A DNA stretch of 17,827 bases from IMG/VR virus record IMGVR_UViG_2778261533_000006, positions 1 to 17,827 of that record; one strand, 5' to 3'. A program made the position numbers. Below, piece by piece: positions 15,001-17,827 of the stretch. Each line of letters opens with the position of its first letter. Positions within the stretch are counted from its first letter, which is position 1. This DNA comes from a virus (taxonomy: Duplodnaviria > Heunggongvirae > Uroviricota > Caudoviricetes).

Positions 15001-17827
15001 TCAGAGGTATAAAACGGATGAGTACAGCACTCGCAACGCTGGCAGGGAAGCTGGCTGAACGTGTCGGCATGGATTCTGTCGACCCACAGGAACTGATCAC
15101 CACTCTTCGCCAGACGGCATTTAAAGGTGATGCCAGCGATGCGCAGTTCATCGCATTGTTGATCGTCGCCAACCAGTACGGCCTTAATCCGTGGACGAAA
15201 GAAATTTACGCCTTCCCTGATAAGCAGAACGGCATCGTTCCGGTGGTGGGCGTTGATGGCTGGTCCCGCATCATCAATGAAAACCAGCAGTTTGATGGCA
15301 TGGACTTTGAGCAGGACAATGAATCCTGTACATGCCGGATTTACCGCAAGGACCGTAATCATCCGATCTGCGTTATCGAGATGGCACATAGCCTCGCTCA
15401 AATTGGAGTCAGGTTTGTGCCAATACCAGTAGAAACAGACGAAGAATTTCATACGTTAGCCGCATCCCTTTCACAAAAGCTGGAAATGATGGTGGCGAAA
15501 GCAGAAGCAGATGAGAGAGACCAGGTATGACAACCACGGAATGCATTTTTCTGGCAGCGGGCTTCATATTCTGTGTGCTTATGCTTGCCGACATGGGACT
15601 TGTTCAATGACACCTCAGCAGGAAAACGCCCTTCGCAGCATTGCCCGTCAGGCTAATTCTGAAATCAAAAAAGCCAGACAGCAGTTTCCGGATAAAAACG
15701 TCGATGACATTTGCCGTAGCGTACTGAAGAAGCACCGCGAAACGGTAACGCTGATGGGATTCACACCGACTCATTTAAGCCTGGCGATCGGCATGTTAAA
15801 CGGCGTCTTTAAGGAACGGTGAACATGAAAAGCAAAATCATCAGGGAGCTACAGGCTCCTTTTTTATTGTTCGCATTCATCCTCAAGCGTATTAACCAAC
15901 AATTCAGGGATTAATGGAAGATGGCAGACATCATTGATTCGGCATCAGAAATCGAAGAATTACAGCGCAATACAGCAATAAAAATGCGTCGTCTGAACTA
16001 CCAGACTGTATCCGCAACTCATTGTTGTGAGTGTGGCGATCCGATAGATGAGCGAAGACGCCTGGCTGTTCAGGGTTGTCGGACTTGTGCAAGTTGCCAG
16101 GAGGAGATCGAACTTAAGAACAAACAATGGGGACTGTGATGGCCTCAAAGCAGCAAATTTCAACATCGTCCAACTGAGGTGTAAAAATGTTCAGAATCAT
16201 TTTTCCTAACACCTGGTACGTCGACCACCACGGCACTCCCTGCAAAATCCTGCGTTCTACCCACAACAAAGTTCACTACATCCGAAAAGGCAGAACATGT
16301 ATCGCCAGCATGTTCCGCTTTAATCATGACTTTGAACCTGTGAATAAAGCTGATGCAGATCGGATAGCAGAAGAGATCGAAACGGCAGAACACATTAAGA
16401 AGTTACGTGACATGCGTTCAAAAAGCAGAGGTAACCATGGAATCATACAGCCTCACACTCGATGAGGCCTGTCAGTTTCTTAAGATATCCAGACCAACCG
16501 CCACCAACTGGATACGAACAGGCCGCCTACAGGCAACACGTAAAGATCCAACCAAGCCAAAATCTCCTTACCTCACAACACGGCAAGCCTGCATTGCGGC
16601 GCTTCAGTCTCCGCTGCATACTGTCCAGGTGAGCGCGGGTGATGGCATAACAGAGGAAAGAAAATGTCACTCTTCCGCAGAAATGAAATATGGTATGCCT
16701 CGTATTCGCTCCCGGGCGGGAAACGAATTAAGGAATCTCTTGGCACAAAGGACAAGCGGCAAGCTCAGGAGTTGCACGACAAGCGAAAAGCAGAACTCTG
16801 GCGAGTAGAAAAGCTAGGGGATTTACCTGATGTCACTTTTGAAGAGGCCTGCCTAAGATGGCTTGAGGAAAAAGCTGATAAAAAATCTCTCGATTCAGAT
16901 AAAAGCCGGATTGAGTTCTGGCTTGAACATTTTGAGGGTATAAGGCTTAAAGATATCTCGGAGGCAAAGATTTACTCTGCTGTAAGCAGAATGCATAACA
17001 GAAAGACGAAAGAAATATGGAAACAGAAAGTTCAGGCCGCCATCAGGAAAGGTAAAGAACCGCCTGTTTATGAACCAAAGCCAGTATCAACTCAGACAAA
17101 GGCAAAGCATCTTGCCATGATAAAGGCCATTCTCCGTGCTGCAGAACGCGACTGGAAGTGGCTGGAAAAAGCGCCTGTCATCAAGATACCAGCGGTCAGA
17201 AACAAGCGAGTCAGATGGCTGGAAAAGGAGGAAGCAAAACGCCTTATTGATGAGTGCCCCGAACCACTGAAATCTGTCGTCAAGTTTGCGCTGGCAACTG
17301 GTCTGAGAAAGTCGAACATCATAAATCTGGAATGGCAACAAATCGACATGCAGCGACGAGTTGCCTGGGTGAATCCAGAAGAGAGCAAATCAAACCGCGC
17401 CATTGGTGTGGCGCTGAACGATACCGCCTGTAAAGTGTTGCGTGATCAAATAGGCAAGCATCACAAATGGGTGTTTGTACATACCAAGGCGGCTAAGCGA
17501 GCAGATGGAACATCAACGCCTGCGGTCAGGAAGATGCGCATCGACAGCAAGACATCATGGCTATCAGCTTGTCGTCGTGCAGGAATTGAAGATTTCCGTT
17601 TCCATGACCTCAGACACACCTGGGCAAGCTGGCTGATTCAGTCAGGCGTCCCATTATCAGTGCTTCAGGAAATGGGCGGATGGGAGTCCATAGAAATGGT
17701 TCGTAGGTATGCTCACCTTGCGCCTAATCATTTGACAGAGCATGCGAGGAAAATAGACGACATTTTTGGTGATAATGTCCCAAATATGTCCCACTCTGGA
17801 ATTATGGAGGATATAAAGAAGGCGTAA

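What the first reader, a model, noticed from the sequence alone, without database searches (positions are those of the whole stretch)
15378..15822. bet truncated and fused to foreign sequence, then a translationally coupled 27-aa hydrophobic peptide and a 71-aa ORF
The Bet reading frame is lambda-like for 121 codons and then switches abruptly to unrelated sequence near nt 15378; exo is absent. The fusion ORF's stop overlaps the ATG of a 27-codon ORF encoding a single hydrophobic helix (ATGA at 15527-15530), whose stop in turn overlaps the ATG of a 71-aa ORF (ATGA at 15607-15610). Two consecutive ATGA overlaps argue for a real, coupled translation unit rather than chance ORFs. I do not recognise the peptide or the 71-aa protein; a small membrane peptide in a phage early operon could be a membrane-acting toxin or exclusion factor.
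Basis: partly seen in the sequence, partly recalled or inferred. Interest (0 to 1): 0.55.

Follow-up and report, generated by a model that had tools for sequence, protein, structure and literature searches.

The report
Decayed prophage; hidden lambda membrane micro-gene
A decaying lambda-like prophage lost 1.3 kb, which welded half of the bet gene in frame onto the neighbouring gene orf63 (ordinary decay), but the 27-codon hydrophobic ORF that follows is identical in phage lambda itself, shows the signature of a real unannotated small membrane-protein gene, and lies inside what is annotated as the start of orf61.

Summary
The sequence facts are right. Bet is lambda-identical for 119 codons, exo is gone, and two ATGA stop/start overlaps link the fusion ORF, a 27-aa ORF and a 71-aa ORF.

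The "foreign" sequence is not foreign. A 1293-bp in-frame deletion, with 2-nt TA microhomology, removed the rest of bet, all of exo and orf60a, and 12 codons of orf63 (DUF1382). The result is Bet(1-119)-Orf63(13-63). The host is a DLP12-type cryptic prophage that also lacks pL, N and cI. I found this junction in only one of 5426 complete E. coli genomes and one IMG/VR contig, so it is private decay.

Everything downstream is the standard lambda exo-xis block, 98% identical to lambda. The 71-aa ORF is intact Orf61; lambda PaPa's copy is frameshifted.

The 27-aa ORF is identical in lambda (30925-31008, complement) and lies in about 58% of complete E. coli genomes. It is unannotated in every RefSeq/PGAP record I examined. 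Across 311 retrieved loci, substitutions fit its frame (14 synonymous, 11 non-synonymous; p about 0.001), not the annotated orf61 N-terminal extension (6:19).

Yersinia-type phages carry unrelated single-helix micro-ORFs in the same slot, under clear purifying selection. Published delta-orf61 mutants also truncate this ORF. Translation and function remain untested.

The parts
14716..15012 (+). gam (98-aa form), first gene left of the finding
   Evidence: Pfam Gam PF06064, E = 3e-65. PGAP annotates it as a Gam family protein in the near-identical strain PSS-07.
15018..15374 (+). bet remnant, codons 1-119 (pseudogene)
   Evidence: 119/119 residues identical to lambda Bet. Only RecT profile positions 5-85 of 198 are present. 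PGAP calls it 'incomplete, missing C-terminus' in PSS-07.
15374..15375 (+). Deletion junction, a TA dinucleotide shared by both parents
   Evidence: Comparison with intact phage ev243 (L001): bet ...GCGTTA|CCGAA and orf63 ...GAGTA|TCGAG. L001 4710-6002 (1293 bp, 431 codons) is missing. The junction 33-mer occurs in one IMG/VR contig and one of 5426 complete E. coli genomes.
15375..15530 (+). orf63 (DUF1382) codons 13-63, read in frame with bet
   Evidence: 49/51 residues identical to lambda Orf63 residues 13-63. PF07131, 75 bits, profile positions 13-60 of 60. The NMR fold is residues 12-54, and the first 11 residues are unstructured (PMC10869804).
15018..15530 (+). 170-aa chimeric ORF Bet(1-119)-Orf63(13-63)
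15527..15610 (+). 27-codon ORF for a hydrophobic single-helix peptide, with ATGA overlaps at both ends
   Evidence: - Identical in lambda at 30925-31008, complement.
- A 21-residue window has mean Kyte-Doolittle hydropathy 2.4.
- 25 distinct substitutions in 311 loci: 14 synonymous, 11 non-synonymous, 14 of 25 at codon position 3, p = 0.0009.
- 87% of loci encode the identical peptide.
- Common variants are 6 synonymous to 2 non-synonymous.
- A mosaic boundary lies exactly at its ATG.
15607..15822 (+). orf61, intact 71-aa form
   Evidence: phrog_303, E = 5e-36. Remote homologues at 32-65% identity are all 69-75 aa, apart from one 89-aa and one 78-aa call, and align from about residue 1. AlphaFold2 gives pLDDT 89 and three helices. 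No significant PDB neighbour.
15819..15914 (+). 31-codon ORF between orf61 and orf73 (GTG start here, ATG in lambda)
   Evidence: Annotated as a 29-aa CDS in phages 434, 21, 1W and Turner. Weak coding signal, 8 synonymous to 12 non-synonymous. Its length matches the 31-aa 'orf2313' reported from lambda ribosome profiling (PMC8614690); that identity is inferred.
15843..15871 (+). Terminator-like hairpin followed by a T run
   Evidence: Same sequence as the predicted terminator t2 of lambda and phi24B (PMC4195576).
15921..16139 (+). orf73 (TraR/DksA-type zinc finger)
   Evidence: PF01258, phrog_54. Lambda Orf73 has been characterised as a TraR homologue acting on RNA polymerase (PMC9239242).
16187..16465 (+). 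DUF4222 gene, the last gene of the string before the xis remnant and intD
   Evidence: PF13973, E = 2e-19. PGAP annotation in PSS-07.

Best explanation
The window is a DLP12-type cryptic prophage beside argU. It carries the left-operon string gam-bet-exo-orf60a-orf63-[27-aa ORF]-orf61-[31-aa ORF]-orf73-DUF4222-int, as found in lambda-like phages.

1. The fusion (shown). A single 1293-bp deletion between two TA dinucleotides removed bet codons 120-261, all of exo and orf60a, and orf63 codons 1-12. Because 1293 = 3 x 431, bet now reads in frame into orf63. Bet keeps under half of its RecT domain, so it is dead. The Orf63 fold (residues 12-54) is nearly intact. The junction is rare, and the prophage has also lost pL, N and the immunity region. 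I therefore read the chimera as an accident of decay that is probably poorly expressed. This last step is inferred.

2. The 27-codon ORF (shown by comparison). It is an ancestral, conserved part of this operon, identical in lambda, and its reading frame is the one under purifying selection.

3. How it most likely works (inferred). In an active phage it is translated early from the pL transcript. Ribosomes terminating on orf63, or on a Dam-type methyltransferase in another mosaic, reinitiate at the overlapping ATG. They make a 27-residue single-helix inner-membrane peptide and terminate on the ATGA that starts orf61. This hands ribosomes to orf61, whose own Shine-Dalgarno sequence is weak.

4. 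Consequences (start site supported by comparison; the rest inferred). The true Orf61 is the 71-aa three-helix protein, and the 61/93/103-aa annotations that begin upstream are wrong. The peptide probably acts at the host membrane. It may account for part of the 'pro-lytic' phenotype assigned to orf61.
For: Deletion:
- Breakpoint mapping against ev243 and lambda.
- Protein identities on each side of the junction.
- Domain coverage.
- Rarity of the junction.
- Loss of the immunity region.

The 27-aa ORF as a gene:
- It is identical in lambda.
- It lies in 3145 of 5426 complete E. coli genomes.
- 25 distinct substitutions give 14 synonymous to 11 non-synonymous against about 25% synonymous expected (p = 0.0009). 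This is as strong as orf61 (28:32) and orf73 (19:14).
- All five variants seen in 40 or more loci are synonymous in this frame. Among variants in 10 or more loci the split is 6:2 here, against 0:8 in the orf61-extension frame.
- 271 of 311 loci encode the same peptide across 23 nucleotide haplotypes. The replacements seen are mostly conservative and keep the helix hydrophobic.
- Shuffles almost never give an ORF that is both open and this hydrophobic (0.02%).
- A mosaic boundary falls exactly at its ATG. The alternative upstream gene, an N6-adenine methyltransferase, again ends in an overlapping ATGA, preceded by GGGAGG.

Against the long orf61:
- The ATG at 15511 is ACG in Stx-phage haplotypes.
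- A common G>T change at 15538 puts a stop codon in that frame.
- Remote Orf61 homologues are about 71 aa and start at the same Met.
- In Klebsiella phages the homologue follows the methyltransferase directly.
- The 71-aa form folds confidently on its own.

Analogy: 23 of 36 loci of a Yersinia-type clade, plus Yersinia phage vB_YenM_29.18, carry other single-helix micro-ORFs of 29-36 aa in the same slot, belonging to three sequence families. In the two families tested, dN/dS is mostly 0.1-0.4 at pS up to 0.9.
Against: - I could obtain no direct evidence of translation. The lambda ribosome-profiling paper is not in the library. A review of it lists only a 7-aa and a 31-aa extra peptide in this block.
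- Sequence diversity is low (at least 90% identity in the E. coli group), so the coding test rests on 25 substitutions.
- The antisense frame that shares the same wobble positions scores almost as well (10 synonymous to 10 non-synonymous).
- One genome, Escherichia sp. E1V33 (L007), has a 14-nt deletion that joins the same ATG in frame to orf61. This destroys the small ORF and gives a 93-aa product.
- Orf61 homologues work without any such ORF in Klebsiella phages and in an E. coli variant (L106). The peptide is therefore dispensable for orf61.
- The peptide has no basic residue and no family match.
- The micro-ORFs of the Yersinia-type phages are positional analogues, not demonstrable homologues.
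Confidence: 0.75

Rival explanations
1. 15527-15610 is not a separate gene. It is the N-terminal part of a longer Orf61 (103 aa from the ATG at 15511, or 93 aa from the ATG at 15541), as annotated in lambda (orf61) and phi24B (vb_24B_7c). The 27-aa ORF would then be an out-of-frame shadow.
For: - Lambda RefSeq annotates orf61 from the equivalent of 15511.
- Many gene callers give 93-103-aa products.
- The frame from 15541 is open in all loci.
- In L007 the coupled ATG is in frame with orf61.
Against: - In this frame substitutions are 6 synonymous to 19 non-synonymous overall, and 0:8 among common variants. They include radical changes such as C>R, H>Y and S>R/G/C.
- The ATG at 15511 is ACG in about a sixth of loci, and a stop codon interrupts the frame in a further large share.
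- True remote homologues are about 71 aa and start at the downstream Met.
- The published AlphaFold and RoseTTAFold models disagree on how residues 1-23 of phi24B Orf61 are positioned, and those residues were left out of the model comparison (PMC8614690).
- The 71-aa form alone folds at pLDDT 89.
Confidence: 0.07
2. The 27-codon ORF is translated, but only as a bridge. Its job would be to carry ribosomes from orf63 (or the methyltransferase) to the weakly initiating orf61 start, and the peptide itself would have no function.
For: - ATGA overlaps lie at both ends and are conserved.
- Only a weak GGGA sits 9 nt upstream of the orf61 ATG.
- Where the ORF is absent, orf61 is coupled directly to the upstream gene or has its own GAGG.
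- The first codons (ATGACAAC) resemble the orf61 start (ATGACACC), which fits an insertion that duplicated the start.
Against: - A pure bridge needs only an open frame. Yet the peptide sequence is conserved: 87% of loci are identical, and high-frequency variants are mostly silent (6 synonymous to 2 non-synonymous).
- The hydrophobic helix is far from what base composition predicts.
- Three unrelated micro-ORF families in the same slot are all single hydrophobic helices under purifying selection.
Confidence: 0.12
3. 15531-15606 is a non-coding spacer, an RNA element, or the shadow of an antisense gene (the 61-aa ORF at 15594-15409 on the minus strand). The plus-strand ORF would then be chance.
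For: - Small hydrophobic ORFs are not rare in this window: 4 of 96 ORFs of 20-40 aa have a similar GRAVY score.
- The antisense frame shares wobble positions and scores 10 synonymous to 10 non-synonymous. It is open in all loci.
Against: - Third-position periodicity and the frequency spectrum fit coding.
- The RNA folds less stably than shuffles (z = +2.8), and there is no Rfam hit.
- Over its overlap with the experimentally solved orf63, the antisense ORF shows no excess of synonymous change (9:20). It would also run against the pL transcript.
- The analogous micro-ORFs in other phages are all in the sense orientation and coupled to sense genes.
Confidence: 0.04
4. The Bet(1-119)-Orf63(13-63) chimera is a selected, functional new protein rather than debris.
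For: The deletion is in frame. The Orf63 fold is almost wholly retained. The junction is shared by at least the window strain, PSS-07 and one IMG/VR isolate contig.
Against: - It occurs in only one of 5426 complete genomes.
- An in-frame outcome is a one-in-three event.
- Other strains carry different, independent deletions across bet-exo (H32-H38).
- The RecT domain is cut at position 85 of 198.
- The prophage has lost pL and N.
Confidence: 0.02

Closest known systems
Phage lambda exo-xis region (orf60a-orf63-orf61-orf73), as described by the Wegrzyn and Donaldson groups
   Same: Window 15374-15925 is 98% identical to lambda 30600-31170, with the same gene order. orf63, orf61, the 31-aa ORF, the predicted terminator t2 and orf73 are all present.
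   Different: - Here orf60a and the first 12 codons of orf63 are deleted, and orf63 is fused to bet.
- orf61 is intact (71 aa), whereas lambda PaPa has one extra A in an A run and a truncated product.
- The literature does not list the 27-aa ORF. It treats that stretch as the orf61 N-terminus.
DLP12 cryptic prophage of E. coli K-12
   Same: Same integration site (argU), the same intD, and the same ren-emrE-ybcK-ybcL-ybcM-rusA-quuD backbone.
   Different: K-12 DLP12 has lost the whole gam...DUF4222 string. It keeps only xisD and exoD fragments. This copy retains O, P, gam, a bet remnant and the orf63-to-DUF4222 block.
Small single-pass membrane proteins and hydrophobic toxins of E. coli and its phages (for example type I toxins such as Ibs, Ldr, TisB and DinQ, and small proteins found by ribosome profiling)
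   Same: Size (27 aa), one hydrophobic helix of about 20 residues, and being overlooked by annotation pipelines.
   Different: - No sequence match to any such family.
- No antisense RNA family or own promoter detected.
- It sits inside an operon and is translationally coupled on both sides, and it has no basic residue.
- Toxicity is untested.
Micro-ORF families A, B and C upstream of Orf61 homologues in Yersinia-type temperate phages (found here)
   Same: Same slot (upstream gene TGA overlapping the ATG, then the micro-ORF, then the Orf61 homologue). Same size class (29-36 aa) and a single hydrophobic helix. Coding frame under purifying selection, shown for families A and B.
   Different: No detectable sequence similarity to the lambda peptide. 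They end 3 nt before a GTG start instead of overlapping it. None is in Pfam or PHROGs.

Membership tests
Bet / RecT single-strand annealing protein (PF03837) | Complete RecT domain (about 198 profile positions) | tested here: not met
   Only profile positions 5-85 are present, and the sequence stops matching Bet after residue 119 of 261. It is a gene remnant.
Orf63 / DUF1382 (PF07131) | Profile match above the curated cut-off | tested here: met
   75.1 bits against a cut-off of 27. Profile positions 13-60 of 60. 96% identical to lambda Orf63 residues 13-63.
Orf63 / DUF1382 (PF07131) | Free-standing protein of about 63 aa with its own start codon | tested here: not met
   Codons 1-12 are deleted and the rest is read from the bet start. 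PGAP instead calls a 49-aa product from the internal ATG at 15381. The folded core (residues 12-54, PMC10869804) is retained except for residue 12.
Orf61 family (phrog_303) | Profile match over the whole protein | tested here: met
   E = 4.7e-36. Residues 1-71 match profile positions 23-93 of 101.
Orf61 family (phrog_303) | Native length of about 71 aa, starting at the conserved Met, with a three-helix fold | tested here: met
   19 remote homologues at 32-65% identity are 69-75 aa (apart from one 89-aa and one 78-aa call) and align from about residue 1. AlphaFold2 gives pLDDT 89.4 with helices 3-26, 32-49 and 54-64.
ZapA cell-division protein (PF05164), the name PGAP gives some homologues | Profile match above the curated cut-off | tested here: not met
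   16.1 bits against a cut-off of 23.8, E = 0.014, covering only residues 3-35. No ZapA among the Foldseek PDB matches.
Protein-coding small ORF (27 aa) | Substitution pattern of purifying selection in its own frame and not in the alternative frames | tested here: met
   14 synonymous to 11 non-synonymous, p = 0.0009. The other two plus-strand frames give 6:19 and 5:20. Common variants are 6:2 against 0:8. Caveat: one antisense frame shares the wobble positions.
Protein-coding small ORF (27 aa) | Direct evidence of translation (ribosome footprints, tagged product or mass spectrometry) | not testable with these tools
   Liu et al. 2013 is not in the library. The peptide is not in the supplements of the Sakai small-gene study.
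Single-pass membrane micro-protein | One hydrophobic segment long enough to span a bilayer | tested here: met
   Residues 6-26 have mean Kyte-Doolittle hydropathy 2.42, and whole-peptide GRAVY is 1.62. Composition-matched shuffles reach this in 0.02% of cases. Membrane insertion itself is untested.
Translationally coupled operon genes | Stop/start overlaps conserved across alleles and across genomic contexts | tested here: met
   An upstream TGA overlapping the ORF's ATG was seen in all 10 upstream sequence variants recovered at this position, which cover both the orf63 and the methyltransferase contexts. The downstream overlap is ATGA or GTGA in all haplotypes.
Type I toxin-antitoxin or known anti-phage defence systems | Match to a known toxin, defence protein family or antitoxin RNA family | tested here: not met
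   No PADLOC hit. No Pfam, NCBIfam or PHROG hit below E = 0.03. No Rfam hit at E <= 1 in 14400-16700.
Type I toxin-antitoxin or known anti-phage defence systems | Growth arrest or membrane depolarisation on expression | not testable with these tools
   This needs an experiment.

The most novel reading that the evidence does not exclude
Phage lambda and most E. coli lambdoid prophages encode a previously unrecognised 27-residue inner-membrane peptide between orf63 and orf61. More generally, the slot just upstream of Orf61-family genes in enterobacterial temperate phages would be a recurrent home for single-helix micro-proteins that work with, or alongside, Orf61. In that case the lysis-lysogeny and induction phenotypes published for 'delta-orf61' would be partly or wholly due to the peptide. 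This applies above all in lambda PaPa, where Orf61 itself is frameshifted.
Probability: 0.3. Interest if true: 0.6.

Novelty: new member of a known kind. Interest (0 to 1): 0.4.

Why it matters
The bet-orf63 fusion itself does not matter. It is one more private deletion in a decaying prophage.

The by-product may matter. The best-studied phage appears to carry a conserved, unannotated membrane micro-gene. It is hidden because the stretch is annotated as the start of orf61.

Two practical consequences follow:

1. The orf61 start is mis-set in lambda, phi24B and many phage records. Structural models of 'Orf61 residues 1-23' describe a peptide that probably does not exist.
2. The published delta-orf61 alleles of lambda keep only codons 1-12 of the 27-aa ORF. 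Their primer homology arm ends at ...GGCAGCGGGCT (Table 2 of PMC4699033). The pro-lytic phenotypes assigned to orf61 are therefore confounded.

The region lies in about 58% of complete E. coli genomes, including Stx phages of EHEC, where exo-xis genes influence prophage induction. A clean genetic separation of the peptide from Orf61 is cheap and directly testable.

Tried and rejected
- **Foreign DNA at the junction:** rejected. Both sides come from the same operon.
- **Structured RNA or riboswitch in 15500-15650:** rejected. The fold is weaker than shuffles and there is no Rfam hit.
- **ZapA identity of the 71-aa protein** (the PGAP name): rejected. The match is below the cut-off and has no fold support.
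- **Homeodomain or other known fold for Orf61:** Foldseek against the PDB gave nothing below E = 2. A weak ankyrin-repeat-like motif was not pursued.
- **First fixed-N DNA pattern:** found nothing because I miscounted the Ns. It was redone with N{76,76}.
- **Liu et al. 2013 (lambda ribosome profiling):** not in the library by DOI or PMC id.
- **Full-text search for the peptide sequence:** no paper. The supplements of the E. coli Sakai small-gene study gave no hit.
- **K-12 DLP12 as a source of ribosome-profiling evidence:** K-12 lacks this block.
- **Genome-contig scan:** returned mostly lambda DNA contaminating unrelated assemblies, so it added no diversity.
- **The look-up of encoding contigs on 'divergent' Orf61 hits:** most turned out to be frameshifted or mosaic variants rather than true divergence.
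Full report
**1. What is in the sequence**

The ORF 15018-15530 encodes 170 aa. Residues 1-119 are identical to lambda Bet. Residues 120-170 are lambda Orf63 residues 13-63, with 49 of 51 identical. Pfam sees both halves: RecT positions 5-85 of 198, and DUF1382 positions 13-60 of 60 at 75 bits.

Its TGA overlaps the ATG at 15527 of a 27-codon ORF. That ORF's TGA overlaps the ATG at 15607 of a 71-codon ORF.

**2. Where the window comes from**

- Positions 1-12948 and 14511-17827 are 99.97% identical to the DLP12-type prophage next to argU in E. 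coli PSS-07. That strain lacks window 12949-14510.
- K-12's DLP12 has lost this whole block.
- To the left of gam, homology to kil/gam starts at about 14486, only about 42 nt beyond the start of the O gene.
- So cII, cro, cI, N, pL and pR are all gone.

**3. The fusion is a deletion, not foreign DNA**

Intact relatives such as phage ev243 carry gam-bet-exo-DUF1317(orf60a)-DUF1382(orf63)-(gap)-71-aa gene-TraR-like-DUF4222-int.

Aligning the window to ev243 shows that L001 4710-6002 is missing. The breakpoints are bet ...GCGTTA|CCG and orf63 ...GAGTA|TCGAG, which share a TA. The loss is 1293 bp, or 431 codons, which is why the frames join.

Orf63's first 11 residues are unstructured and its fold spans residues 12-54 (PMC10869804). 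The Orf63 domain is therefore nearly whole. Bet is cut within its annealing domain.

The junction is rare. It is present as one continuous match in only one of 5426 complete E. coli genomes. The junction 33-mer occurs once in IMG/VR. Other strains carry different deletions across bet-exo (H32-H38). This is ordinary, recent prophage decay.

**4. The downstream ORFs are lambda's own exo-xis genes**

Window 15374-15925 is 98% identical to lambda.

The 71-aa ORF matches phrog_303 at E = 5e-36. It is the intact form of orf61. Lambda PaPa has one extra A in the A run at window 15667-15672, which truncates its orf61 to 61 aa. This agrees with the remark in PMC8614690 that lambda Orf61 looks truncated.

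The 27-aa ORF is base-for-base identical in lambda, at L003 3226-3309, which is lambda 30925-31008 on the complement. It was not annotated in any RefSeq or PGAP record examined. The stretch occurs in 3145 of 5426 complete genomes. Some older GenBank records and one UniRef entry do list it as a hypothetical protein.

**5. Which frame codes in 15531-15606?**

Lambda and phi24B annotate this stretch as the N-terminus of orf61, starting at the equivalents of 15511 or 15541. I collected 311 homologous loci from IMG/VR, phage records and E. coli genomes. They gave 23 haplotypes and 25 distinct substitutions.

| Frame or gene | Synonymous : non-synonymous | Note |
|---|---|---|
| 27-aa frame | 14 : 11 | 14 of 25 at codon position 3; p = 0.0009 against about 25% synonymous expected |
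| orf61-extension frame | 6 : 19 | no excess |
| Third plus-strand frame | 5 : 20 | no excess |
| orf61 (control) | 28 : 32 | p = 0.0002 |
| orf73 (control) | 19 : 14 | p = 4e-5 |

- Every variant present in 40 or more loci is silent in the 27-aa frame.
- Among variants in 10 or more loci, the split is 6:2 in the 27-aa frame and 0:8 in the extension frame.
- 87% of loci encode the identical peptide. The replacements seen (T3A, E5K, I7T, F8L, A10V, A11V, A21S/V, D22N/G, V26I) leave the helix hydrophobic.
- In the extension frame, the ATG at 15511 is ACG in the Stx-phage haplotype. The common G>T change at 15538 creates a stop codon.
- One antisense frame shares the same wobble positions and scores 10:10. 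It shows no excess of synonymous change where it overlaps the experimentally solved orf63 (9:20).

**6. Independent lines of evidence**

- (a) A mosaic boundary lies exactly at the ATG at 15527. In about 30 loci and several genomes the upstream gene is an N6-adenine methyltransferase instead of orf63. Its TGA overlaps the same ATG, preceded by GGGAGG.
- (b) An exhaustive phmmer search found true Orf61 homologues at 32-65% identity. All but two are 69-75 aa (the exceptions are one 89-aa and one 78-aa call), and they align from about residue 1. The 71-aa form folds confidently as three helices with no PDB neighbour.
- (c) In Klebsiella phages the homologue follows a methyltransferase directly, through GGAGGCAGCATGACG.
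- (d) Yersinia phage vB_YenM_29.18 and 23 of 36 related IMG/VR loci carry a different single-helix micro-ORF in the same slot. There are three families of 29-36 aa, and their ATG overlaps the upstream TGA.
- (e) For two of those families, pairwise dN/dS is mostly 0.1-0.4 at synonymous divergence up to 0.7-0.9. They are real genes, and none is in Pfam or PHROGs.
- (f) The lambda peptide's hydrophobic helix is reached by only 0.02% of composition-matched shuffles.

**7. Counter-evidence**

- I could obtain no translation data.
- A review of the lambda ribosome-profiling study lists only a 7-aa and a 31-aa extra peptide in this block. The 31-aa one fits the ORF at 15819-15914.
- Escherichia sp. 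E1V33 (L007) has a 14-nt deletion that fuses the coupled ATG in frame to orf61.
- An E. coli variant (L106) and the Klebsiella phages lack the micro-ORF. Orf61 therefore does not need it.

**8. Mechanism**

*Shown:* the deletion and its frame, the conservation and coding signature of the 27-aa frame, and the conserved overlaps.

*Inferred:*
- In an active phage, the peptide is made early from the pL transcript by termination-reinitiation after orf63.
- It inserts in the inner membrane.
- Its own termination delivers ribosomes to orf61, whose Shine-Dalgarno sequence is weak (GGGA, 9 nt upstream).
- In this cryptic prophage the string has no known promoter. The scan found no promoter-like site between 14486 and 16700 on the plus strand, although a promoter upstream of orf73 has been predicted (PMC4195576).

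Function remains unknown, and no toxin or defence family matches.

**9. Consequence for published work**

The lambda delta-orf61 allele was built with a homology arm ending at ...CTGGCAGCGGGCT, which lies just after codon 12 of the 27-aa ORF. It replaces the rest up to about Orf61 codon 15 with an 87-nt scar (Table 2 of PMC4699033). These mutants therefore also remove the peptide's helix.

**10. Verdict**

The headline of the finding, bet fused to foreign DNA, resolves into ordinary decay. Its second half points to a probable overlooked micro-gene of lambda itself. That is a new member of a known kind, of moderate interest, and it awaits a simple experiment.

Noticed in passing
window 15667-15672 (A run inside orf61); lambda L003 about 3150-3160: Lambda PaPa has seven As where this prophage and most relatives have six. 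That frameshift is why lambda's orf61 is 61 aa with an unrelated tail, while the family protein is 71 aa.
   Followed up: yes
window 15819-15914 and 15843-15871: A 31-codon ORF (GTG start here, ATG in lambda) overlaps the orf61 stop. It contains a terminator-like hairpin plus T run, identical to the predicted t2 of lambda and phi24B. Its coding signal is weak (8 synonymous to 12 non-synonymous). Its length matches the 31-aa 'orf2313' reported from lambda ribosome profiling.
   Followed up: partly
window about 14444-14486: A second, larger deletion joins the region just upstream of the replication gene O (minus strand, start at 14443) to the 3' end of kil. It removes cII, cro, cI, rex, N, pL, pR, sieB, ral and cIII. 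The gam...int string is left without its known promoter.
   Followed up: partly
window 12949-14510: This 1562-bp stretch (5' part of P, all of O) is absent from the otherwise 99.97% identical E. coli PSS-07. That strain has therefore taken one further deletion step.
   Followed up: partly
L243 602-697; L246-L281 about 694-804: Three unrelated families of 29-36-aa single-helix micro-ORFs sit between a methyltransferase (or other gene) and the Orf61 homologue in Yersinia-type temperate phages. Examples are MKRKISDGAWFWIYLIGYTVAATLYIVSNAG, MDDLSFVMAYLDWILLIVGVGVALWLLWVKEW and MNQPKVTEILIGICFALFIICLVVYVVGDAMNGVSM. In the two families tested, dN/dS is mostly 0.1-0.4. None is in Pfam or PHROGs.
   Followed up: partly
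L007 1435-1716 (Escherichia sp. E1V33): A 14-nt deletion just after the coupled ATG destroys the 27-aa frame. It reads the same start codon straight into orf61, giving a 93-aa product. This is the only natural case seen in which the 'long Orf61' would actually be made from that start.
   Followed up: partly
L008-L021 (genome-contig hits): Assemblies labelled Shewanella, Pseudomonas, Bradyrhizobium, Kitasatospora, Oceanobacillus, Paenibacillus and others contain contigs with the lambda-type frameshifted orf61. Several of these contigs are about 48.4-48.5 kb. This is almost certainly lambda DNA contamination of those assemblies.
   Followed up: no
window 15730-15805 (Orf61 residues about 42-65): The C-terminal GFTPTHLSLAIGMLNGVF stretch of Orf61 gives weak hits to ankyrin repeats and DARPins (best E = 3e-4 in PDB sequences). 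It also gives multi-stretch hits to large, unnamed proteins (up to 9 matched stretches in one) in the exhaustive search; these may be repeat proteins, but I did not identify them. This could be a single ankyrin-like helix-turn motif or chance.
   Followed up: no
E. coli genomes H32-H38: Other strains carry different, independent internal deletions across bet-exo-orf60a in the same prophage type. This stretch seems to be a recurrent target of decay.
   Followed up: no
window 12026-12359: In PSS-07 the DLP12-borne emrE gene at the position corresponding to this stretch is annotated as frameshifted. The window is near-identical there (99.98% over 1-12948). I did not check the frameshift itself in the window.
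   Followed up: no
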